Source: Parcubacteria group bacterium
GTDB taxonomy: Bacteria > Patescibacteriota > Minisyncoccia > Moranbacterales > UBA2206
Reading direction: 5' to 3'
DNA: 64,000 nucleotides
Assembly: GCA_041659505.1 (NCBI GenBank)
Contig: JBAZYF010000004.1
Span: 14,922-78,921 of the forward strand
The position numbers and the translations under genes are program-made. Under the pieces are notes generated by a model. That model ran no database searches. It was given only the letters and a program-made list of their open reading frames with translations, and was not told the origin of the DNA. Positions 1,530-54,324 of the stretch are shown here, piece by piece (within the stretch, counting starts at the first letter, position 1; each line of letters starts with the position of its first letter).

Positions 1530-1612
1530 CTTGGTAGCCCCAAGGAGAGTCCCTGCCTACCGGCAGGCAGGGAACTCCTCTTTCCAGGATAACCTGCCCG
1601 CTGAAATGATTG

Positions 1613-3479: not shown

Positions 3480-3533
3480 AATATAAAAAAATCATCATCT
3501 TGAGGGGAATACTGATTTTTTATTAACACAAGG

Positions 3534-3674
3534 CTTGCGTATTTGCCTAAAAAAAGTTCGCACGTTCATCCTTCTTAGCATCCAAAGTGTCCGGTAGACC
3601 AGCAAGGGATAGCCAATGCTAGGAAACCGTGCTCTCGAGAACTTTTTTCAGGTAAATATGCAAGTCAGAAAAAT
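3534..3674. repeat. MITE-like element, copy 1 of 2 (TIR CTTGCGTATTTGCC...GGTAAATATGCAAG; conserved core GTTCGCACG...TCGAGAA)
   Basis: About 85% nt identity to 21199..21330 across a 95-nt core. Both copies are bounded by about 20-bp inverted repeats. Confidence 0.7.
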
Positions 3675-21168: not shown

Positions 21169-21198
21169 GAATTTTAAAATTAATTTTTTATCCTGGAA

Positions 21199-21330
21199 CT
21201 TACGTAATCGCCAAAAAGTTGTTCGCACGTTTATTTCTTTTAGCATCCCAGGCTTCCGGTAAACCAGTAAGGGAAAGCCAAATTGAGGAAACCGCGCTTT
21301 CGAGAATAATTTTTTGGTGATTACGTAAGT
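21199..21330. repeat. MITE-like element, copy 2 of 2 (TIR ACTTACGTAATCGCCAAAAA ... TTTTTTGGTGATTACGTAAGT)
   Basis: Core 21221..21307 matches 3556..3652. Flanked by near-perfect 20-bp inverted repeats. Confidence 0.7.
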
Positions 21331-21379
21331 TCTGCACTCTTCTTATTTTAACTTTAATTTTAAAAAATGTCGAGAAGCA

Positions 21380-27340: not shown

Positions 27341-27509
27341 TGTCATTCCCGCGAAGGCGGGAATCCAGGTTCCACTAGTTATAAACTCTATAAAATCGAG
27401 ATACAAGTCTTGGTGCCTTCCCGTTTCAGATAGTCTTGAATTTTAATAATTCGTTTTTTCTTAATTTTGAATCTGAGGTGCCTAGATTCCCGCCTTCGCG
27501 GGAATGACA
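27341..27509. repeat. MITE-like palindromic element, TGTCATTCCC family, copy 1 (TIR TGTCATTCCCGCGAAGGCGGGAATCCAGG)
   Basis: Ends are reverse complements of each other. Each end is itself a hairpin ATTCCCGC-GAAG-GCGGGAAT. About 85% identical to 54157..54324. Confidence 0.8.
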
Positions 27510-28285: not shown

Positions 28286-28321
28286 ACTAATAATTTATGT
28301 TAGAAAATTTTGTTTATATCC

Positions 28322-28472
28322 CCTTCGCCCTCCGGGAGAAGGTGGCCGAAGGCCGGATGAGGGAAAGGGCTTAATATTAGGCAAAAGCTAAATTAGCACA
28401 GACTGTTTTTGATTTATAGCCCTTGCCCTAACCTGTCACGTGCTCGTGACATCCTCTCCCGAGGGGCGAGGA
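28322..28472. repeat. palindromic intergenic element (TIR CCTTCGCCCTCCGGGAGAAGG ... CCTCTCCCGAGGGGCGAGGAGG; inner GTCACGTGCTCGTGAC palindrome)
   Basis: The left arm and the reverse complement of the right arm align with few mismatches. Confidence 0.6.
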
Positions 28473-28537
28473 GGAAAATAAATATAATTCAGGGCAATCC
28501 CGAAAAATTCAAGATTGCCCCGCTATCTTTCTATTAT

Positions 28538-31666: not shown

Positions 31667-31894
31667 TTATTTTCCCCGCACCCCAAATTTCGCAACGATA
31701 ACTGCTAATGGACAATAACCGGTCAAGGAAAAGTTAATCAGCATCGCGCCGACCAAGAGTGTGAAATAGCGAAAATTAGGATGACCGGCCAAGGACATTA
31801 CTTCCGAAAGCACTACAAAAATTCCGGCAATCAAAAAAACGATTCTTTCCACATACCAACGATCGGTTTCTTGACGATAAATTTTCTTTTGCAT
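31667..31894 (-). CDS. DUF2892 family small membrane protein
   Basis: 75 aa, two TM helices, C-terminal LTGYCPLAVIVAKFG pattern. Confidence 0.55.
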   Translation of the reverse strand: MQKKIYRQETDRWYVERIVFLIAGIFVVLSEVMSLAGHPNFRYFTLLVGAMLINFSLTGYCPLAVIVAKFGVRGK

Positions 31895-31904
31895 ATTTTT
31901 ATTC

Positions 31905-32084
31905 TGAATGACTTACGCATTTGCCCAAGTCAGCCGTATTGGCTAAAAAATCCTGTTTGAGAATGCCTTTTTTCTTCAAAATTTTCCATTGGTTGCCGCT
32001 TCTTGAGGGGAAATTTTAAAAAGAAAAAAGAGCGTTCGAGTAATTTTTTTAGCCAATACGGCTGTGAGGTGAAATGCATAACTC
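31905..32084. repeat. about 180-bp nested-palindrome element, efflux-operon family copy 1 (abuts the RND pump stop codon)
   Basis: AGTCAGCCGTATTGGCTAAAAAA ... TTCTTCAAAATTTTCCA ... GGAAATTTTAAAAAGAAAAAAG ... TTTTTTAGCCAATACGGCTGTGAGG. Outer and inner inverted repeats. Confidence 0.8.
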
Positions 32085-35000
32085 CTAGTCTAAATGTTTA
32101 GCTCGCATTGAAGTGTCCCATTTTTTATGTTCAACCATATAATAGATGATTGGAAAAACCACCAAAGTGAGAAAAGTTGAAGCCGTGAGACCGAAGATGA
32201 GCGCCCAGGCCAGCCCTTCCCAGACCGGATCAGTTATGATTGTGAGCGATCCCAAAATGGCCGTAAGCGAGGTCAGGGTGATCGGAAGCAAACGAATTCT
32301 ACCTGTTTCAACCAAAGCCTCAATCATTGGCTTGCCAAGCTTTTTGAGCGGTTCGAGATATTCGAGATATATGACCGTATTTTTGACGGAAAGCCCCGCA
32401 AGTGCAATGACGCCAATCATCGACGTTGCATTAAAATAGGTGCCTTTGAGGGCGTTAAGGATTGCAAAGCCGGGAAAAACTCCAATGAGACCAAGCGGAA
32501 TACTTACCATCAAAAGAAGCGGCACAAAGAGTGATTCGGATTTGGCGGCCAAGACAAAATAGATGAGAAAAATCGCCACCCCCATCGCCAGTCCCAAGTC
32601 GCGAAAAACTTCCAAGGTCAATTTCCACTCGCCGTCGATTTTGACAAAATAATGCTCATGCGTCTGCGTGTTTTCATATTCCGCACCGAGCAGATTCCAA
32701 GCTACTACTTTCCCATTGCCATCCGGCAATTTATATTTGAGAAGCTTGGGGAAAAAATCCAAAACAGCATACACAATACTGCGATTATTCATCTCGGCGG
32801 AAAGATAGGTCGCTTGCCGGCGATCATCAGACAAAATTGGCAGATCGGTTGCACTGTCGGTTTTTTCAATAATTTCCAAAAGTGGCACACTCGTACCATT
32901 TCGTGAGGGAATTTCAATTTTCGCTAGATCCTCCTCTGTGTTGCGATCATCTTTTGGCAAACGCAAGATGATATATTCTTGCTCCGGTTTGCGCGAGTTG
33001 CCCGGCGTCACTTCATGATATTGTCCGACCGCAAAGCCAGATAGCGCCACATGCAAAAGCGTCGAGATGTCAGTCGGAGCGACGCCTAAAAGCTCCGCTT
33101 TATCGGTCCGGATGCGATAAGTATAATCCAATGTCCGCTCGGGAGTAGAAAGGTCGAGATCAATGACACCTGGGATATTTTCAATTTCTGCTTCGAAATC
33201 GCGCGCCATCTGTTCACGATTTTTTTCGTCCCTACTCTCAATTTTTAGCAAAAATGTCGCCAATACCGGCGGTCCCGGCGGATCCTCGACGATGCGCATC
33301 TTAATATTCGGATGTTCGCTCAGATATGGACTGGTCACATTAACAAATTCCTGCGCAAGCTTTTCTGAACTAATATTGCGCTCATTGCTTTCGGTCAGAT
33401 TCACCCTGAGCGTCGCTTGGTTTTGAAACAGACGGAAAGAACTACCCCGGAAAAGTCCATTGAAATCCACCACGGGCGCCTCACCCACAAAGCTCTCCAC
33501 ATTTTGCACTTCCGAATTTTCCAAAATCAGCTCCTCGATAGATTTAGCGTCAGCTTGCGTCTCACCCACAGCTGTGCCATTGGGCAGATTGATATAAACA
33601 TAGACTTGATTTTTGTCCGCTTTCGGAAGCATCCGAAAAGGCACAAGCGGAGTGAGTGGCAAGATGAGAGAAAAAACAAAAATAACCGCGACCACGCTAA
33701 TTATTTTTTTCCTTCTCCCGGCCGTTGCTAAAAAATATTTGAGCCATTTTGTATAGCGCTCTTCCAATTTTTTAAACTGGCGGAAGAAAAAACCTTCCTC
33801 ATAGCTTTTTCTCTTAATATTGGGATCATTTTTTGGTGTAAAAATCAACGCGAGATAGGGATTGATCGAAACAGAAAAAATAAGTGAAGCAAACAAAGCG
33901 GCCGGCACGAAAAACGGAATCGGCGCCATGTATGGTCCCATCATTCCGGTCACAAACGCCATCGGGATGAAAGCGATCGCCATCGTGAGTGTGGAAAGCG
34001 CCAGTGCCCCACCCACTTCATCCACCGCTCGTACAATTAATTTTATCCGATTCTCCTGCGGGTAGAGTCGAAAATAGCGCGCCACATTTTCAATCACCAC
34101 GATTGCGTCATCGACTAAAAGCCCTAAGGAAAGAATGAGGGCAAACAGTGTAATGCGGTTAACAGTTTGCCCAGCCAAAAGTCCCACACCAAACACGGCC
34201 AAAAGAACCAAGGGGATAGAAACCGCCGCCGTCATTGCGTTACGAAAACCCAAAAACAGCATAAGGAGTACCGCCACAACGAGGATCGATTTGGTCAGAT
34301 CGAAAGTCAGTTTGCTAATTTCTTCACTCGAAGTTTTGCCTTCATCGCGCAGCACTTCAACTTTGACATCTTGAGAGATCATCGTGCCTTTGAATTTTTC
34401 CAATTTCCCTATAACATCAGAAGAAACGGTTGTGGCATTGGTTCCCTTAAGCTTAGAAAGAGCAATGTGCACCACTGGCACATCCGCCTCGTTTTTCTTT
34501 GCCACTGAAACAAAACTAGTAATTTCTCCCGGACCGTAAGTAATCTCCGCGATATCTCCCAAACGCAAAATCGCACCTCCCTCTTGACGCAAAACTAAAT
34601 TTTTCAAATCTTCCACATTCCGAATATTTCCAGAAACATCCAAAAGTGGATTTCTTTTTGCTCCTTCGATTGGATTGACACTAAAAACACCGTTTGCACT
34701 AGTTATCGCTCCCATAATTTCAAAAAGAGAAATATTCCTTGCTGACAGTTCCCCCGCGCGCGGTTCCACAAAAAGATTATTGATCCGCCCACCTTTAATC
34801 TCGACTTTTGATATGCCCTTCGCCTGCTTGAGTTCATCAGAAACATCAAAAGCTAATTTCCGCAAAGTACTTTCCGATAATATACCAGAAGATAATCCAA
34901 TATCCAAAATTGGCACATCATCCGGATCAATCGCTTGGACGACGGGATCCATCGCGCCCGCTGGTTTCAGTCCAATATTATCCTGTAATTTTTGGTTCAG

Positions 35001-35381
35001 CTCAACTTTAGCATTCTCTAAATCAGACCCGACTAAAAATTTCACCATCACCATACTCCGCCCACCCGGAAAAGTTTGCGAAGAAATATTGTCAATCTTC
35101 GTCAACTCGGAAATTTTATCCTCCATAGGACGGGTGATCAGCTCATAAATCTCAGACGCGTCCGCATTGGGAAAATCGGTCGTGATGATAAACGCCGGGG
35201 CGACGATTTCCGGATTATACTGCTTGGGCGTGAGAATAAAAGAAAATGTCCCCCAAACCGCAATCACAATGATAGCTAAGATGGACAACTCTTTTTTTTG
35301 CAAAAACAACCGGGTAATTTTCCCCGCCAAGCCTAATTTTTCTTTGTGCGTATCATCAAAAGATTGGTCATTATTATGCAT
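32085..35381 (-). CDS. RND family efflux transporter (AcrB/CzcA superfamily), 12-TM
   Basis: 1098 aa. Conserved AcrB-family N-terminus and two large periplasmic loops. Confidence 0.88.
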   Translation of the reverse strand: MHNNDQSFDDTHKEKLGLAGKITRLFLQKKELSILAIIVIAVWGTFSFILTPKQYNPEIVAPAFIITTDFPNADASEIYELITRPMEDKISELTKIDNISSQTFPGGRSMVMVKFLVGSDLENAKVELNQKLQDNIGLKPAGAMDPVVQAIDPDDVPILDIGLSSGILSESTLRKLAFDVSDELKQAKGISKVEIKGGRINNLFVEPRAGELSARNISLFEIMGAITSANGVFSVNPIEGAKRNPLLDVSGNIRNVEDLKNLVLRQEGGAILRLGDIAEITYGPGEITSFVSVAKKNEADVPVVHIALSKLKGTNATTVSSDVIGKLEKFKGTMISQDVKVEVLRDEGKTSSEEISKLTFDLTKSILVVAVLLMLFLGFRNAMTAAVSIPLVLLAVFGVGLLAGQTVNRITLFALILSLGLLVDDAIVVIENVARYFRLYPQENRIKLIVRAVDEVGGALALSTLTMAIAFIPMAFVTGMMGPYMAPIPFFVPAALFASLIFSVSINPYLALIFTPKNDPNIKRKSYEEGFFFRQFKKLEERYTKWLKYFLATAGRRKKIISVVAVIFVFSLILPLTPLVPFRMLPKADKNQVYVYINLPNGTAVGETQADAKSIEELILENSEVQNVESFVGEAPVVDFNGLFRGSSFRLFQNQATLRVNLTESNERNISSEKLAQEFVNVTSPYLSEHPNIKMRIVEDPPGPPVLATFLLKIESRDEKNREQMARDFEAEIENIPGVIDLDLSTPERTLDYTYRIRTDKAELLGVAPTDISTLLHVALSGFAVGQYHEVTPGNSRKPEQEYIILRLPKDDRNTEEDLAKIEIPSRNGTSVPLLEIIEKTDSATDLPILSDDRRQATYLSAEMNNRSIVYAVLDFFPKLLKYKLPDGNGKVVAWNLLGAEYENTQTHEHYFVKIDGEWKLTLEVFRDLGLAMGVAIFLIYFVLAAKSESLFVPLLLMVSIPLGLIGVFPGFAILNALKGTYFNATSMIGVIALAGLSVKNTVIYLEYLEPLKKLGKPMIEALVETGRIRLLPITLTSLTAILGSLTIITDPVWEGLAWALIFGLTASTFLTLVVFPIIYYMVEHKKWDTSMRAKHLD

Positions 35382-35404
35382 ATTATTTTAATTTCACGAT
35401 TTAA

Positions 35405-35585
35405 GCGTTTACTCGAGTCAGCCGTATTTTTCTAAAAAAATCCTGCCTGAGAAGGCCTTTTTTCTTCAAAATTTTCCATTGGTTGCCTTTGATAGAGGGA
35501 AAATTTTGAAGAAAAAAGAGCCTTCGAGTTATTTTTTTAGAAAAATACCGGCTGCGAGGTGAAAAGCGTAACTCCTGAGTTTTGT
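35405..35585. repeat. nested-palindrome element, efflux-operon family copy 2 (between adaptor and pump genes)
   Basis: Same architecture and about 85% identity to copy 1. Confidence 0.8.
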
Positions 35586-35608
35586 AGCCCTATCTGACTT
35601 AGTACTCA

Positions 35609-36766
35609 TTATTCATCTGAAACCACATCTCCATCCAGCAAAAAATACTGCCCTTCTATGATGATTTTTTCGCCTGCCGTAATCCCGGAAAGTACCTCGC
35701 GCAATTCGCCGAACGAATCACCTAGCGTAATTTTATTTTTCGTAACTGTTCCATCTGCTTTTAAGCTAAACACAAAAGTATCATCATACTCGCGCAAAAT
35801 TGCTTCTTCGGGAATAAGAATAACCGCGCGCGAACTTCCCACAGGCACAGCCACGGTTGCATATTGCCCAAGCGAAAGCGCTCGAATGTTTTCTGCGGCG
35901 GAAAATCGGATCCGCATGATAGATTTTTGCGTCGCCGTTCCGACTGATTGCGCAGTAGAAAAAACGTAGCCGGACAATGACAAGTTTTTTTGTCCTTCGG
36001 GATAAACTGATACGGAAATGTTTTTTGAGCTATTTCCCGCCACCGAACTGGGAACCGAAACACTTACTTCCAACTCAGTTGGCGAAGCAATCGCATAGAG
36101 CGGTGTCCCCGGAGCGGCAAAAGAACCAACGGAAAAATATTTTCTTGTGATAACTCCGGAAAAAGGCGCGGTAATAGTGGCGTTTTTCGCCGCAATATGC
36201 GCTACCAATTCCCCGCCTTGAGCCGCGGCCTCATTCGCCTTCGCACCGGAATTTTGCAAATCACGCATTTTTTTTGCGCTATCCAATCCTTCTTCGGCAA
36301 TTTTTACGTCTTTTTTTGTCACATCGCTATTGGAATAGCTTTCCTTGGTTTTTTTGAGCGACGCCTCGGCTTCATCCACTTTTTGATCATAGAAATCTTT
36401 TGTGTCCCGAACAGTTTTTTTGATTGCATCAAGCGTCATTAGCGCACTCTGATCCATCGCCGCAAGTTCACTACCATCAAGCACAGCAAGCACCTCTCCC
36501 GCGCGCACCACGTCACCCTCTTCTTTCAAGAGCTTCGTCACATACCCGCCAGCCTTAGGCGAAACATCAGCTTGTTTTGCGCCGCTGACAAACCCTGAGA
36601 AATCTCGCGTCGGCTGAAAATCGGACTCCGTCGCAACAATGGTCTTGACGTTTTTAATCGAGTTACTAGTTTCAGATGTCTCCTCTCCCTTGGCAAAAAA
36701 AGCGCCTCGAATAAGATAAAAAAATGCAAACATAGCTAGCGTTCCGATGAGATATCTTTTTTTCAT
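35609..36766 (-). CDS. RND efflux periplasmic adaptor (membrane fusion protein, HlyD family)
   Basis: N-terminal TM anchor, coiled-coil hairpin, beta-barrel/MP domains. Adjacent to the RND pump. Confidence 0.72.
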   Translation of the reverse strand: MKKRYLIGTLAMFAFFYLIRGAFFAKGEETSETSNSIKNVKTIVATESDFQPTRDFSGFVSGAKQADVSPKAGGYVTKLLKEEGDVVRAGEVLAVLDGSELAAMDQSALMTLDAIKKTVRDTKDFYDQKVDEAEASLKKTKESYSNSDVTKKDVKIAEEGLDSAKKMRDLQNSGAKANEAAAQGGELVAHIAAKNATITAPFSGVITRKYFSVGSFAAPGTPLYAIASPTELEVSVSVPSSVAGNSSKNISVSVYPEGQKNLSLSGYVFSTAQSVGTATQKSIMRIRFSAAENIRALSLGQYATVAVPVGSSRAVILIPEEAILREYDDTFVFSLKADGTVTKNKITLGDSFGELREVLSGITAGEKIIIEGQYFLLDGDVVSDE

Positions 36767-36779
36767 AATGATTGAGGCT

Positions 36780-36957
36780 TACGCACTTACCCGAGTCAGC
36801 CGTATTTTCTAAAAAAATACTGTCTGAGAATGCCTTTTTTCTTCAAAATTTTCCACCGGATGCCGTTGATTGAGGGAAAGTTTTGAAAAGAAAAAAGAGC
36901 GTTCGAGTCATTTTTTTAGAAAATACGATTGCGAGGTTAAATGAGTAAATTCCGATG
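36780..36957. repeat. nested-palindrome element, efflux-operon family copy 3 (abuts the csoR stop codon)
   Basis: Same architecture. The right TIR is partly degraded (GAAAATACGATTGCGAGG). Confidence 0.75.
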
Positions 36958-36962
36958 GTAAT

Positions 36963-37208
36963 TTATTTTTTAATTATTTCTTTCAAAAGTCTGCCCAACT
37001 TATTCCTATCACTGGTTTTCATTTTCGCAGCGCAATCAACTAAACTCTGTTCGGTATATCCAGTCATCACACGTTCAAACGCCGCCTTGGCCGCTTTCAT
37101 CTGGATCAGCACGGAAAAACAATCCTGGTTTTTTTCCGTAAGCATCTTTTTGATTCCCTCCAGCTGACCGATGACATTATTGATCAACTGCTCGTTACTT
37201 TTTGACAT
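36963..37208 (-). CDS. csoR: CsoR/RcnR-family metal-sensing transcriptional repressor
   Basis: 81 aa. VIGQLEGIKKMLTEKNQDCFSVLIQMKAAKAAFERV...CAAK matches the DUF156 pattern, with Cys residues at the metal-site positions. Confidence 0.78.
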   Translation of the reverse strand: MSKSNEQLINNVIGQLEGIKKMLTEKNQDCFSVLIQMKAAKAAFERVMTGYTEQSLVDCAAKMKTSDRNKLGRLLKEIIKK

Positions 37209-37250
37209 ATTTTTTTAAAAGTTAATACTTAGTGATTCCAAGTCTAACAT

Positions 37251-37270
37251 ACACCCCCTGGGGGTGTCAA
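37251..37270 (-). promoter_or_regulatory. candidate CsoR operator: perfect G/C-tract palindrome ACACCCCC-T-GGGGGTGT overlapping a TTGACA -35 hexamer upstream of csoR
   Basis: Seen directly in the sequence. Established CsoR operators are CCCC-N-GGGG type pseudo-palindromes. Confidence 0.55.
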
Positions 37271-37297
37271 GGGTTTACTAGTTTTCCTTCGCCTTGC

Positions 37298-37427: not shown

Positions 37428-38195
37428 TTAGATTCTTTTTTGTACGCCACCATTTTCAGATTGATTTAGGTATTTTTTTAAAAAATCTTCTCTCGTCATG
37501 TGAGCACTCCTAGTAGTTTTACCTATCGCAGATCCATCAGTTTCATCAATGACAAAACCAAACTTCTCTATAATTTTTGGATGTCTTGCAATAATCCATG
37601 ATTCTCCTTTGACCATTTCTATATCTTTATTTTTATTCACAATCTCAGCTAATATTTCCAACCCGTTTTTAAGTTTCACAATAGTTTCACCCAAAGATTC
37701 TCTCGGCCGTATATGTATCTCCGCGATATTTTTCTTCATATGACAGACGAGCAATTCATTGATTTGTATTCGTTCAAAATCATCCAAAGGATCCTTCTCG
37801 TTAAGTTCCGGGTATTTGATTGTTAAATCAACCAATGGCTTAATCAATTTAAACACTTGTTCGATAAATTCTCTCTTATCTTTTATGTTCGCGCATTGAT
37901 CTAATTCTACGCCGATCGTGTTTTCAACTCCATGTAGTTTCATAATCCTCGCCAAATTCTCTTTCATGGAATCTACTCGCTCCTTCCCTTTCTGATAAGT
38001 CTTAAAAATGACACCGATTTTGGTTTTTACCACGACATACTCCCTTTCCTTTTCTATATCCTCATGAGATTTTTGCAGTTCCTTTTTCCCATCAGAACTC
38101 TCCTGTTTTAAAATTTCTTCTCTCATTTTTTTAAGCTTACAGACATAATTAACTCCCCCTTGAACCACTTCCTGATTGTACCACAAATAAATCAA
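37428..38195 (-). CDS. hypothetical protein located inside the copper island (between copA and csoR)
   Basis: ORF only. No recognized domain. Probable start at internal MREEIL. Confidence 0.4.
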   Translation of the reverse strand: MIYLWYNQEVVQGGVNYVCKLKKMREEILKQESSDGKKELQKSHEDIEKEREYVVVKTKIGVIFKTYQKGKERVDSMKENLARIMKLHGVENTIGVELDQCANIKDKREFIEQVFKLIKPLVDLTIKYPELNEKDPLDDFERIQINELLVCHMKKNIAEIHIRPRESLGETIVKLKNGLEILAEIVNKNKDIEMVKGESWIIARHPKIIEKFGFVIDETDGSAIGKTTRSAHMTREDFLKKYLNQSENGGVQKRI

Positions 38196-40444: not shown

Positions 40445-40609
40445 ATTGTCATCCTGAGCGAAATTCTGTACTCAGAACGCAGTCGAAGCCTGCCTGCCGG
40501 TAGGCAGGGATCTACTTACCAAAACCTCTAGTTTTGAAGATATAGACTAAACTTAGGATAGCGCAAGGCAGATTCTTCGACTCCACTACGTTTCGCTCAG
40601 AATGACAAT
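40445..40609. repeat. MITE-like element (TIR ATTGTCATCCTGAGCGAAA ... TTTCGCTCAGAATGACAAT) containing the CCTGCCTGCCGGTAGGCAGG hairpin
   Basis: 19-bp terminal inverted repeats with 1 mismatch. The inner hairpin is the reverse complement of the hairpin at 1549..1570. Confidence 0.7.
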
Positions 40610-40613
40610 ATTT

Positions 40614-41996
40614 CTACTCTACTATAAATTTACCACGAACCATCCCCATCCAACAACTAAACGGGATTTCGCCGACTTTATCAGGAGGAGTAAAATTCAC
40701 GACATTATCTCCAGAGCTGATACTTTGCGAAATCTTGAGACTAGGCACAATAATTTTATTCGTACAGCTTGTCACACTATCCCCTTTGATCACCCAACGC
40801 ACCGGCACGCCCTTTTTCAAATGTAAGGTATTTGGTGAGAATCCTGCGTTAGTCACATGCATTTCCACCACTTGCTCTGCCACATCAGTTTTTGCCGTTC
40901 CCATTTGTTCTTTTTGATTACTTTGATCGCCGAACACATTGCCCGATACGCCAACCAACGCCAAGCCGGAATTGAACGTATAAAAGGCAAAAATAACAAC
41001 TAGCATGCCAGCTACCTTTTGAAAAATCGCCGCATTTTTACCCTTGCTCCAAGCGGTAGTCACGCCAAGAGTGAGAAGGGACGGCACAGTGCCGAGTGCA
41101 AAAAGAAACATCCCAAGCCCTCCGCGCATAAAACTGCCCGAAGCAATGGCAAGGATCTGCATACTTTGCGTAAAACCACAGGGCAGAAAAAAAGTCATAA
41201 TTCCTAAGAGAAAAGGCGCGGCTGGATTTTGAGATTTTTTCAGCCTATTCCAGGGCGCGCTGAAAAATCTCGGCATCCGCATTCCCAGACTGGCGATATC
41301 AGGAAATAATCCCAATACATTAAGACCCAAAATTGCTAAAACCACTGCAATAATGATAGTGTAGACCGCGACAAAATTTCCACTGATATTTATCTCTCCG
41401 CCAATCGCACCGAGCAGTCCACCTAGGACAAAAAATCCGCCTAACCGGCCAAGATGGAAAAATAAGTTCGGCTTCACGGCTCCACCTAAAAACCCGCGCT
41501 TATCACCTTTATATTTTTCTGAAAAAGCAATCACCACCGATCCCACTACGACCAAGCAACTAGAAACAGAAGCGACAAGTCCGATGAGAAAGGCTGTTCC
41601 AAAATCAGCGCCAGAACCAGTGACACCGATTTTTTGCCCGAAACTAGAACCTTGAAACAGTTGAAAACCAAAAATTATTAAAATAACAAAAGCCACGGCC
41701 CAAAGCCAAGATTGCCAAGAACTCTTTCCAGCCTTCTCTATAGACATGATCGTTTTTCGCTCCGATGCAGTATGACCAAATTTCTCTACTATCTTTTTAA
41801 CTTCAGAAAAATCCGGCTCGGTATCTGCATAATCAAGTTCCACACTGCCTTTTTTTCGATCGGCACGAATCTTTTTTACGCCCGGAACGCCAGCCAATTC
41901 ATCATCGAGCAACTTCTCGCAACTAACACAATGCATCCCTTGGATATAGATTATTTTTGTTTGCATATTCATCCCCCACCACTTTTTCGCTCGCAT
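40614..41996 (-). CDS. HMA-domain / DsbD-CcdA-like transmembrane / C-terminal cupredoxin-like domain fusion protein
   Basis: GMHCVSCEK HMA motif. 6-8 TM helices with Cys residues (SSCLVVVGS, FFLPCGF). C-terminal beta-rich domain with ...SCWMGM. Confidence 0.5.
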   Translation of the reverse strand: MRAKKWWGMNMQTKIIYIQGMHCVSCEKLLDDELAGVPGVKKIRADRKKGSVELDYADTEPDFSEVKKIVEKFGHTASERKTIMSIEKAGKSSWQSWLWAVAFVILIIFGFQLFQGSSFGQKIGVTGSGADFGTAFLIGLVASVSSCLVVVGSVVIAFSEKYKGDKRGFLGGAVKPNLFFHLGRLGGFFVLGGLLGAIGGEINISGNFVAVYTIIIAVVLAILGLNVLGLFPDIASLGMRMPRFFSAPWNRLKKSQNPAAPFLLGIMTFFLPCGFTQSMQILAIASGSFMRGGLGMFLFALGTVPSLLTLGVTTAWSKGKNAAIFQKVAGMLVVIFAFYTFNSGLALVGVSGNVFGDQSNQKEQMGTAKTDVAEQVVEMHVTNAGFSPNTLHLKKGVPVRWVIKGDSVTSCTNKIIVPSLKISQSISSGDNVVNFTPPDKVGEIPFSCWMGMVRGKFIVE

Positions 41997-42104
41997 CCGC
42001 GATTAAGCTAGAGGTAATTTATTAAATTATGCTATTGACATATCATGTGATTTATTAAAATAAAAAACGTAATCATAAAAGCGAAAAAGTGGTGGGGGAT
42101 AAAC

Positions 42105-54142: not shown

Positions 54143-54156
54143 AATTGAAAAATATG

Positions 54157-54324
54157 TGTCATTCCCACGGAGGCGGGAATCCAGGTTCCACTAATTATAA
54201 ACCATAGAAAATTGAGCTACGAGCCTGAAAACTCTCTACCTCAAAAAGTCTTGAATTTTAATAATTCGTTTTCTCTTTATTTTTAGCTTGAGGTGCCTGG
54301 ATCCCCGCCTTCGCGGGGATGACA
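54157..54324. repeat. MITE-like palindromic element, TGTCATTCCC family, copy 2
   Basis: TGTCATTCCCACGGAGGCGGGAATCCAGGTTCCACTAATTATAAAC ... GAGGTGCCTGGATCCCCGCCTTCGCGGGGATGACA. Homologous along its whole length to 27341..27509. Confidence 0.8.

What the first reader, a model, noticed from the sequence alone, without database searches (positions are those of the whole stretch)
31905..36957. Three copies of a 180-bp nested-palindrome element placed exactly 3' of each gene of the csoR-adaptor-RND pump operon
Copies at 31905..32084, 35405..35585 and 36780..36957 are about 85% identical and in the same orientation. Each starts within a few nt of the stop codon of csoR, the adaptor gene and the RND pump gene respectively. 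Each carries outer inverted repeats (AGTCAGCCGTATT / AATACGGCTG) and inner inverted repeats (TTCTTCAAAATTTTCCA / GGAAAATTTTGAAGAA). It can therefore fold into a long hairpin in the mRNA. This placement is typical of REP/BIME-like elements that stabilize upstream mRNA segments or set differential expression within an operon. It is also compatible with local MITE proliferation.
Basis: seen in the sequence. Interest (0 to 1): 0.6.

Follow-up and report, generated by a model that had tools for sequence, protein, structure and literature searches.

The report
Hairpin transposon copies between operon genes
The three 180-base hairpin repeats are copies of a small mobile DNA element (a MITE) that jumped independently into the tiny gaps between genes of a copper-type efflux operon in an uncultured Moranbacteria-like bacterium, so it is a new family of an already known kind of element, not a purpose-built regulator.

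Summary
Three co-oriented ~180-nt copies (31909-32087, 35397-35577, 36775-36954, minus strand) are 81-82% identical, and each folds into one long hairpin. They fill the csoR|adaptor, adaptor|RND and RND|ygaP-like gaps.

They are insertions. Orthologous operons in four relatives (80-89% RND identity) have spacers of only 9-29 nt at these junctions. One relative carries a different element with the same termini at the adaptor|RND junction.

The family is dispersed. I found 22 more copies at 20 unrelated loci in Moranbacteria-like metagenome contigs (rpoB|rpoC, rplO|secY, kinase|regulator, guaB|guaA and others). Five contigs break inside a copy.

The window copies are each closer to copies elsewhere than to each other, so they did not arise by local copy-paste.

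No Rfam family, terminator, promoter excess, attC core site, phage match or plasmid match was found.

Best reading: a non-autonomous terminal-inverted-repeat element (MITE). Its closeness to stop and start codons follows from how short the ancestral spacers were.

Three features remain unexplained: a 19:3 sense-orientation bias, covarying outer arms around a nearly invariant core, and an unresolved target duplication. Any effect on mRNA is untested.

Verdict: new member of a known kind, moderate-to-low interest.

The parts
31909..32087 (-). Family-A hairpin element, copy 1, between the RND pump gene and the YgaP-like small membrane protein gene. Its first three bases, TAG, are the RND stop codon. 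It ends 14 nt before the next ATG (31894).
35397..35577 (-). Family-A hairpin element, copy 2, between the adaptor (membrane fusion protein) gene and the RND gene. It starts 31 nt after the adaptor stop and ends 15 nt before the RND ATG (35381).
36775..36954 (-). Family-A hairpin element, copy 3, between the csoR-like gene and the adaptor gene. It starts 8 nt after the stop and ends 8 nt before the ATG (36766).
36963..37208 (-). csoR-like metal-sensing repressor gene (81 aa, PF02583), first gene of the operon.
35609..36766 (-). RND adaptor (membrane fusion protein) gene, 385 aa.
32085..35381 (-). RND permease gene, 1098 aa (PF00873).
31667..31894 (-). YgaP-like transmembrane protein gene, 75 aa (PF11127), last gene after copy 1.
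37241..37273 (-). Promoter-like site TTGACA-18-TAGACT enclosing a G+C palindrome (ACACCCCC.GGGGGTGT). It is conserved in relative L026. It is the likely CsoR-controlled operon promoter, from which the three elements would be co-transcribed (inferred).
3532..3667 (-). Family-B hairpin element. It has the same terminal motif (TGACTTGCATATTTACC...) as family A but a different core.
21196..21332 (-). Second family-B copy (GAACTTACGTAATC...GATTACGTAAGTTC).

Best explanation
The three repeats are copies of a non-autonomous, non-coding terminal-inverted-repeat element. It is a bacterial MITE, here called family A. The host is an uncultured Moranbacteria-like member of the Patescibacteria (candidate phyla radiation).

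What is shown:
- The element is about 180 nt long, or 200 nt in a subfamily with a nested 20-nt G+C palindrome.
- It is a near-perfect palindrome from end to end.
- Its termini are 5'-(TA)GGAGTTACGCATTT... and ...AAATGCGTAAGTCA(TA)-3'.
- The same ~16-nt terminal motif (GRSTTACGCRTTTRCC) is shared with other element families that have different cores (families B and F). This is expected if one transposase moves them all.
- After the window's lineage split from relatives that are 80-89% identical in the RND protein, three separate copies landed in three consecutive intercistronic spacers of the csoR-adaptor-RND-ygaP operon.

What is inferred:
- Those spacers were only about 9-29 nt long, so any insertion that leaves both genes intact must abut a stop codon and a start codon. 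Selection against disruptive insertions then leaves the observed pattern.
- The copies are transcribed within the operon mRNA from the CsoR-type promoter upstream of csoR. Each folds on itself into a closed hairpin that brings the upstream stop and the downstream start back close together.
- This makes the insertion largely harmless. As shown for Correia and ERIC elements, the hairpins may change local mRNA processing or stability.
For: Mobility and dispersal:
- One full and one partial copy occur in two genome-collection MAG contigs (the 'Bdellovibrionales' label of L002 was corrected). Twenty further copies occur in metagenome contigs. Together with the three window copies that makes 25 family-A copies.
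- The contexts are unrelated: rpoB|rpoC, rplO|secY, kinase|response regulator, guaB|guaA, glycosyltransferases, uppS.
- Five contigs end inside a copy.

Filled versus empty sites:
- The window has the element at all three junctions.
- L028-L030, L031/L032 and L033 have spacers of 9, 23-27 and 29 nt. L026/L027 has 11 nt at junction 1.
- The reciprocal case also exists. L016 has two copies where the window's own genome (L035) has 9 nt and 102 nt without an element.

Independent arrival: the window copies are 81-82% identical to each other but 85-88% identical to copies elsewhere.

Shared termini with other cores: L026 junction 2, window 3532-3667 and 21196-21332, and two copies in L013.

Replicative spread: a derived 20-nt insertion at one fixed position is shared by 7 copies at different loci.

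Non-coding: 1-2-nt and 20-nt indels fall between copies.

Nothing specific found: no Rfam family at the gathering threshold and only generic hairpin matches far below it; no terminator-like site inside the elements and no promoter excess; no phage or plasmid match.

The element fits the published description of bacterial MITEs: under 200 bp, inverted-repeat ends, TA at the termini, A+T-rich, long stem-loop transcripts (PMC2229807).
Against: - No transposase or autonomous element with matching ends was found in the sequence held, and the public collections could not be scanned for one.
- The target-site duplication is unresolved. TA precedes the 5' end in 15 of 22 copies but follows the 3' end in only 8 of 22, with TG in 7. 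The cleanest filled/empty comparison in the window (junction 1) fits a TC or ATC duplication, not TA.
- Contrary to the usual MITE pattern, the terminal arms are the most variable part and covary, while the inner ~110-nt core is nearly invariant. That core also occurs with quite different outer arms in L002 and L009.
- A 19:3 orientation bias relative to the genes is not predicted by double-strand cut-and-paste transposition unless selection acts on orientation.
- Three copies in three consecutive junctions, out of about 55 junctions in the window, would arise by chance only about 0.2% of the time (my arithmetic). Some local tolerance or preference must be assumed.
Confidence: 0.8

Rival explanations
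1. Selected intercistronic RNA hairpins that work like REP/BIME or ERIC. On this view the copies are kept because, in the operon mRNA, they block 3' exonucleases or are cut by RNase III or RNase E. That would set different levels of repressor, adaptor, pump and YgaP-like protein.
For: - The copies lie inside a transcription unit, and no promoter or terminator is predicted between the genes.
- The hairpins are very stable.
- 19 of 22 orientable copies are in the sense orientation.
- Base pairing is maintained through changes on both sides at 15 of 54 pairs, against 6.9 +/- 1.6 in shuffles.
- There is precedent: Correia elements are RNase III substrates, including one in the mtrCDE RND operon (PMC2649163). 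ERIC elements change upstream mRNA stability in an orientation-dependent way (PMC2229807).
Against: - Four relatives run the same operon with 9-29-nt spacers and no element.
- The same element sits in unrelated operons and between divergent starts, in L007 and L012.
- The sense-strand RNA is always the weaker folder, by a mean of 13 kcal/mol, because the family's fixed mismatches are A.C on the sense strand.
- Copy-specific deviations show no excess of G.U (24) over A.C (33) on the sense strand. An excess would be expected if the RNA fold were under selection.
- The covariation counts sequences rather than events. It could also come from arm-to-arm conversion in a DNA palindrome.
Confidence: 0.12
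2. The element is mobile but moves as a single-stranded DNA hairpin rather than by double-strand cut-and-paste. A structure-recognising enzyme (an HUH/Y1 type as in IS200/IS605 or REP-RAYT, or an attC-like single-strand mechanism) would insert it strand-specifically at the replication fork.
For: - The orientation bias is 19:3 in family A, and families B (3 of 3) and F (2 of 2) are also co-oriented.
- 50 of 56 window genes lie on one strand, so gene direction and replication direction coincide.
- In the outer arms the structure is conserved but not the sequence.
- No clean target duplication is seen.
- The same core occurs with different arms.
Against: - The inverted repeat runs symmetrically to the very ends, with TA-type termini, as in cut-and-paste MITEs. 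IS200/IS605 and REP ends are not inverted repeats of each other (established knowledge).
- The two L016 copies are flanked by TA on both sides at sites that look like TA targets in the empty homologue.
- No Y1 transposase appears in the Pfam calls for about 40 kb around the window, although this covers only a small part of the genome.
Confidence: 0.15
3. Integron-like cassette boundaries. Each gene would be followed by its own attC-type recombination site, so the operon would be a cassette array.
For: There is only a superficial resemblance: an imperfect palindrome directly 3' of each gene, all in one orientation.
Against: - The gene order csoR-adaptor-RND-ygaP is conserved in relatives without the elements.
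- The GTTRRRY and RYYYAAC core sites are absent from copies 1 and 2.
- No integrase appears among the neighbouring genes.
- The element also lies between rpoB and rpoC and between rplO and secY.
Confidence: 0.01
4. Intrinsic terminators or attenuators between the cistrons.
For: An A7 tract and a T7 tract flank the inner hairpin.
Against: - The terminator scan places none of its 11 sites inside the elements.
- The stem next to the T tract is an A+T-rich, partly unpaired internal loop.
- Termination after csoR or after the adaptor gene would silence the pump.
Confidence: 0.03

Closest known systems
Correia / NEMIS elements of Neisseria (PMC2649163)
   Same: - 100-160-bp non-coding inverted-repeat elements in many copies.
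- Inserted next to or between genes and co-transcribed.
- The transcripts fold into hairpins.
- Insertion polymorphism between strains.
- One sits in the control region of an RND efflux operon (mtrCDE).
   Different: - No sequence relation. The quoted Correia core ends and IHF site are absent.
- In Correia elements only the 24-26-bp ends pair, whereas here the whole 180 nt is one hairpin.
- The host phylum is different.
- RNase III cleavage, promoter creation and IHF binding are demonstrated for Correia elements and untested here.
ERIC / IRU elements of enterobacteria and Yersinia (reviewed in PMC2229807)
   Same: - An imperfect palindrome of about 127 bp in transcribed intergenic regions.
- A whole-element stem-loop.
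- Species-specific insertion sites.
- The effect on upstream mRNA depends on orientation, which parallels the orientation bias seen here.
   Different: - No sequence relation was tested or expected.
- The ERIC orientation effect was measured. Here only a bias in retained orientation is seen.
RUP of Streptococcus pneumoniae, mobilised by IS630-Spn1 (PMC2229807, PMC3049150)
   Same: A small A+T-rich element of about 107 bp with TA-type termini and many intergenic copies.
   Different: RUP has an identified candidate transposase with matching ends. No partner is known here, and the TA duplication is not established.
REP / BIME elements (PMC3733652)
   Same: Palindromic, extragenic, often at gene 3' ends inside operons, and proposed to stabilise upstream mRNA.
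   Different: REPs are 20-40 bp and G+C-rich, and they are often clustered in alternating orientation. This element is 180 nt, A+T-rich and single. The nested 20-nt G+C palindrome CCTGCCTRCCGGCAGGCAGG is the only REP-sized piece.

Membership tests
Bacterial MITE (criteria as listed in PMC2229807) | Short (under about 200-300 bp) and non-coding | tested here: met
   The element is 178-204 nt. Indels of 1-2 nt and of 20 nt between copies break any reading frame.
Bacterial MITE (criteria as listed in PMC2229807) | Terminal inverted repeats | tested here: met
   The arms are complementary from end to end. Across 22 copies, 54 consensus pairs are 95.9% paired.
Bacterial MITE (criteria as listed in PMC2229807) | Many copies dispersed at unrelated loci | tested here: met
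   25 copies at 21 different places, counting the operon as one. Contigs break inside copies. The census is incomplete, because the metagenome scan missed a contig known to carry the element.
Bacterial MITE (criteria as listed in PMC2229807) | Insertion polymorphism: filled versus empty orthologous sites | tested here: met
   All three window junctions are empty in relatives. Two L016 junctions are empty in the window's own genome.
Bacterial MITE (criteria as listed in PMC2229807) | Target-site duplication / 5'-TA-3' at both termini | tested here: inconclusive
   TA is at the 5' side in 15 of 22 copies and at the 3' side in 8 of 22 (TG in 7). It is on both sides in 6 of 22. The L016 comparisons fit TA, but window junction 1 fits TC or ATC.
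Bacterial MITE (criteria as listed in PMC2229807) | Autonomous insertion sequence with the same ends | not tested
   Only solo ends and other non-coding families with the same ends were found in the sequence held.
REP / BIME | 20-40-bp G+C-rich imperfect palindrome units | tested here: not met
   The unit is about 180 nt and A+T-rich.
REP / BIME | Clusters of units in alternating orientation (BIME) | tested here: not met
   There is one unit per gap, and all three have the same orientation.
REP / BIME | Associated RAYT (Y1 transposase) gene in the genome | not tested
   No such Pfam family appears in about 40 kb of called genes. The rest of the genome was not seen.
Correia / NEMIS | Correia core ends (CCGGTACGG, TCAGGACAA) and IHF site CTTCAGCACCTTA, as quoted in PMC2649163 | tested here: not met
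   None was found in the three copies, allowing 1-2 mismatches.
Integron attC site | Core sites RYYYAAC ... GTTRRRY at the ends | tested here: not met
   Absent from copies 1 and 2. Copy 3 has one incidental match.
Integron attC site | Flanked genes are independent cassettes next to an integrase | tested here: not met
   The same four genes occur in the same order without elements in four relatives, and no integrase is nearby.
Intrinsic terminator | G+C-rich stem directly followed by a T run | tested here: not met
   None of the 11 terminator-like sites lies inside an element.
Any Rfam 15 RNA family | Match at the family's gathering score | tested here: not met
   The window's only match is one tRNA. 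In E-value mode the elements match only plant microRNA-precursor hairpin models, at 24-34 bits against thresholds of 83-140.

The most novel reading that the evidence does not exclude
Moranbacteria-like genomes may carry a superfamily of whole-element hairpins that differ from ordinary cut-and-paste MITEs in three ways.
- They would be moved by an enzyme that recognises the folded single strand. This would explain why the outer arms covary instead of being conserved, why one core occurs with different arms, and why the orientation bias is strong.
- They would insert preferentially right after stop codons in operons.
- They would nest inside one another: a 20-nt palindrome inside the core, the core inside the outer arms, and family D inside another element in L028.

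The closed hairpin would bring the stop and the next start together. Translation of the downstream gene could then continue, which would explain how streamlined genomes tolerate so many of these elements.
Probability: 0.15. Interest if true: 0.6.

Novelty: new member of a known kind. Interest (0 to 1): 0.35.

Why it matters
- Candidate-phyla-radiation genomes are small and tightly packed, and they are usually described as poor in mobile DNA. This 64-kb window carries about nine to ten hairpin elements from at least five families.
- I found no paper in the held library describing MITEs in this group.
- In practice, these repeats break metagenome assemblies. They also inflate intergenic gaps and could be mistaken for regulatory RNAs.
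- Biologically, they offer a natural experiment. The same operon exists with 0, 1 or 3 hairpins between its cistrons in closely related lineages.
- That lets one ask how large structured inserts affect operon expression in organisms whose genes here show no Shine-Dalgarno sequence ahead of the start codon.

Tried and rejected
- Rfam, at gathering and E-value thresholds: nothing specific.
- Viral contigs scan with the conserved 22-mer: no match.
- Phage and plasmid collections, distant blastn: no match.
- Promoter and terminator scans: counts are no higher than in shuffled sequence, and no site lies inside an element.
- Small ORF in the core (MENFEEKRHSQTGFF, and the 49-aa ORF in copy 1): rejected, because indels and the 20-nt insertion shift the frame between copies.
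- The idea that the element inserts into the TA of the stop codon, so that one orientation regenerates TAG: rejected as a general rule. The stop codon coincides with the terminal TAG only in window copy 1. In two other copies it abuts or overlaps the element's first base (gap 0 or -1). Elsewhere it lies 2-83 nt upstream.
- Local copy-paste within the operon: rejected from the identities.
- RNA-level selection read from G.U versus A.C counts: no signal. The consistent strand asymmetry in folding energy comes down to six mismatches shared within subfamilies. That is only a few events, so I do not lean on it.
- Cross-phylum spread suggested by the 'Bdellovibrionales' label of L002: rejected. Its rpoC is 84-85% identical to Moranbacteria/Patescibacteria proteins.
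- Search for a transposase: plus-strand ORFs and ORFs of unknown function in the window gave no transposase domain. Isolated ends in the held loci belonged to other non-coding families.
- Separating gene direction from replication direction: not possible, because 50 of 56 window genes share one strand.
Full report
OBSERVATION

The three repeats are real. They lie at 31909-32087, 35397-35577 and 36775-36954 and are co-oriented on the minus strand. A profile built from them scores each copy at E = 1e-59 to 1e-62, and nothing else in the 64-kb window scores better than E = 0.03. Pairwise identity is 81-82%.

Each copy folds as a single long hairpin. RNA energies are -65.4, -75.4 and -54.1 kcal/mol, with z = -7.0, -8.0 and -5.5 against shuffled sequence.

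GENE CONTEXT

All the genes concerned are on the minus strand. In order they are:
- a csoR-like repressor gene (37208-36963)
- copy 3
- the adaptor gene (36766-35609)
- copy 2
- the RND permease gene (35381-32085)
- copy 1
- a 75-aa YgaP-like membrane protein gene (31894-31667)
- nrdR and nrdD

A promoter-like TTGACA-18-TAGACT enclosing a G+C palindrome lies upstream of csoR at 37241-37273. It is conserved in a relative. No comparable signal lies between the cistrons.

The elements fill the gaps completely. They start -3, 31 and 8 nt from the upstream stop codons and end 14, 15 and 8 nt before the next start codons. So 'just 3' of each gene' is true, and '5' of each next gene' is equally true.

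ORGANISM

The window is part of ENA contig ERZ27247358 k141_1339487 (152 kb). The same operon, with its elements, also occurs on a JGI contig from sample 3300014208.

The RND protein is annotated by NCBI as coming from a Parcubacteria-group MAG. Its nearest relatives are Candidatus Moranbacteria/Moraniibacteriota.

THE ELEMENTS ARE INSERTIONS

I fetched orthologous operons from relatives.

| Relative | RND identity | csoR\|adaptor | adaptor\|RND | RND\|ygaP |
|---|---|---|---|---|
| L028-L030 | 80% | 9 nt | 26 nt | 29 nt |
| L031/L032 | 81% | 9 nt | 27 nt | different downstream gene |
| L033 | 81% | 9 nt | 23 nt | 81 nt |
| L026/L027 | 89% | 11 nt | 205 nt, different element | 77 nt, unrelated small hairpin |

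The 205-nt sequence in L026/L027 has the same termini as the finding (TGACTTGCATGCTTACC ... CACGTAAGTCC) around a different core. Alignments between the window and these loci break exactly at the element ends.

The ancestral operon therefore had tight spacers, and the window lineage acquired three insertions.

The reverse case also exists. Locus L016 (UppS 82% identical) has two copies flanking a polyprenyl synthase gene. At the same junctions the window's own genome (L035) has 9 nt and 102 nt with no element.

THE FAMILY IS DISPERSED

A 22-mer from one arm found a full copy and a partial copy in two MAG contigs. An independent 21-mer from the other arm found 20 metagenome contigs. Nineteen of them carry true copies, two carry two copies each, and most come from sample 3300014208.

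The contexts are unrelated: rpoB|rpoC, rplO|secY, histidine kinase|response regulator, guaB|guaA, glycosyltransferases and uppS. Five contigs end inside a copy, which is typical of assembly breaking at repeats.

The census is incomplete. The scan returned exactly 20 loci and missed a contig known to hold two exact matches.

L002 is labelled 'Bdellovibrionales', but its rpoC is 84-85% identical to Moranbacteria/Patescibacteria proteins. All hosts seen so far therefore belong to one lineage.

There is no match in the viral, phage or plasmid collections.

NOT LOCAL COPY-PASTE

Each window copy is closer to copies at other loci (85-88%) than to its two neighbours (81-82%). A further ~12 kb of the same genome holds no other family-A copy.

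Three copies in three consecutive junctions, out of about 55, would be a roughly 0.2% event if placement were uniform (my arithmetic). However, the whole copper-resistance cluster is crowded with hairpin elements:
- Family E lies between the first csoR and the HMA/DsbD gene.
- Family D lies between that gene and copA.
- Family A occurs three times.

Relatives carry their own, different inserts at these junctions. The simplest reading is that a conditionally used accessory cluster tolerates insertions.

ANATOMY OF THE FAMILY

Twenty-two full copies align over 210 columns.
- The ends read (TA)GGAGTTACGCATTTC... and ...GAAATGCGTAAGTCA(TA).
- Seven copies share a 20-nt perfect G+C palindrome (CCTGCCTRCCGGCAGGCAGG) inserted at one fixed position. 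This marks a subfamily that spread after acquiring it.
- The same 20-mer also occurs alone next to a tRNA and inside family D.

Of 54 consensus pairs, 95.9% of cells are paired. Fifteen pairs show changes on both sides, against 6.9 +/- 1.6 in shuffles (0 of 500 shuffles reach 15) and 2-6 in slid controls.

Unusually for a MITE, the covariation is concentrated in the outer arms. The inner ~110-nt core is almost invariant: 19 of the 25 pairs in its helix never vary. That core also occurs with quite different outer arms in L002 and L009.

Conversely, the outer ~16 nt recur on families B and F, which have other cores. In L028 a family-D element sits inside an element with these ends. The 'nested palindrome' may therefore be literally nested insertions.

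POSITION AND ORIENTATION

Of 24 placeable copies:
- 19 are in the sense orientation of the flanking genes
- 3 are antisense (L003, L010, L017)
- 2 lie between divergent starts (L007, L012)

The 19:3 split has a two-sided binomial p of about 0.001 (my arithmetic).

In sense copies the 5' end lies a median of 3 nt after the upstream stop, and the 3' end lies about 13 nt before the next start. Because the ancestral spacers were 9-29 nt, insertions that spare both genes and the A-rich stretch ahead of the start codon can only lie there.

The orientation bias is not explained. Fifty of 56 window genes share one strand, so gene direction and replication direction cannot be separated.

The sense-strand RNA always folds less stably than the antisense strand, by a mean of 13 kcal/mol. 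This comes down to six consensus A.C mismatches that are shared within subfamilies, so it reflects only a few events. Copy-specific deviations show no excess of G.U (24) over A.C (33) on the sense strand. There is therefore no positive sign that the mRNA fold itself is under selection.

TARGET DUPLICATION

This is unresolved. TA is at the 5' side in 15 of 22 copies, at the 3' side in 8 of 22 (TG in 7), and on both sides in 6 of 22. The two L016 filled/empty pairs fit a TA target. Window junction 1 fits TC or ATC.

WHAT IT IS NOT

- Not an Rfam family.
- Not an intrinsic terminator. None of the 11 terminator-like sites lies inside an element, and promoter-like sites are no more frequent than in shuffled sequence.
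- Not an attC site. The core sites are absent, no integrase is nearby, and the operon gene order is conserved without the elements.
- Not a Correia element by sequence.
- Not REP/BIME by size, composition or arrangement.
- Not coding.

MECHANISM

Shown:
- It is a mobile, non-coding, whole-palindrome element family.
- Insertions are lineage-specific.
- Its termini are shared with other families.
- It arrived independently three times in this operon.

Inferred:
- It is mobilised in trans by an unidentified transposase.
- It is co-transcribed from the CsoR-type promoter.
- It folds on itself in the mRNA, so the stop and the next start stay close and the insertion is tolerated.
- By analogy with Correia elements (RNase III; PMC2649163) and ERIC elements (orientation-dependent mRNA stability; PMC2229807), it may have side effects on processing or stability.

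A selected regulatory role and a single-strand hairpin mode of transposition remain as minority rivals.

VERDICT

This is a new family of a known kind, the bacterial MITE, in a group where I found no published description. The MITE alternative is supported, though not as local proliferation. The REP/BIME-like function is untested and not favoured.

Noticed in passing
window 3532-3667, 21196-21332; L026 5796-6000: Family B: ~135-nt hairpin elements with the same terminal motif as the finding (GACTTRCRYATTTRCC) but a different core. All three copies are in the same orientation relative to their genes.
   Followed up: partly
window 27341-27509 and about 54155-54324; L026 13812-13970: Family C: ~170-nt hairpin elements with ends TGTCATTCCCGCGAAGGCGGGAATC. 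There are two copies in the window.
   Followed up: no
window 40445-40609 (between the HMA/DsbD gene and copA); L028 391-628 and 1994-2217: Family D: ~165-nt hairpin with ends TGTCATYCTGAGCGAA. The window copy contains the 20-nt G+C palindrome. In L028 a family-D copy is nested inside an element with CTTACGC-type ends.
   Followed up: partly
window 41968-42103; L026 12534-12678: Family E: ~136-nt hairpin with ends TTATCCCCCACCACTTTTTCGCT. It lies between the first csoR and the HMA/DsbD/cupredoxin gene, so five junctions of the copper cluster carry hairpin inserts.
   Followed up: no
window 1552-1571 and 40489-40508; L005 819-838: The 20-nt perfect palindrome CCTGCCTRCCGGCAGGCAGG occurs alone just 3' of a tRNA gene (window and L005), inside family D, and nested in 7 family-A copies. 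It behaves like a REP-sized module.
   Followed up: partly
window 37428-38195 (-): A 255-aa ORF with no Pfam match lies between copA and the second csoR. It is absent from relatives L026 and L028, where that gap is 148-158 nt.
   Followed up: partly
window 37241-37273 (-); L026 4223-4380: A conserved promoter-like TTGACA-18-TAGACT encloses the palindrome ACACCCCC.GGGGGTGT. It is a probable CsoR operator for the efflux operon.
   Followed up: partly
L013 2395-2541 and 3230-3369: Two copies of another family (F), with the same CTTACGC-type ends, flank a single glycosyltransferase gene. A family-A copy lies at 1-110 of the same 3.4-kb contig. Element-gene-element arrangements recur (also in L012 and L016).
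   Followed up: partly
window about 28286-28537; L026 12940-13106; L028 12929-13216: A conserved G+C hairpin (GAAAGATAGCGGGGCAA...TTGCCC) starts the long gap after the small NrdD-like ORF in all three genomes. In each it is followed by different structured sequence.
   Followed up: no
L002 (CAYLWX010000006.1): The contig is labelled 'uncultured Bdellovibrionales', but its rpoC is 84-85% identical to Moranbacteria/Patescibacteria proteins. It is probably mis-binned.
   Followed up: yes
whole window: 50 of 56 ORF-level genes are on the minus strand. The start codons examined are preceded by A/T-rich sequence with no Shine-Dalgarno motif.
   Followed up: partly
metagenome scan: The scan returned exactly 20 loci and missed Ga0172379_10103428 (L025), which holds two exact matches to the pattern. 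Copy counts from it are lower bounds.
   Followed up: partly
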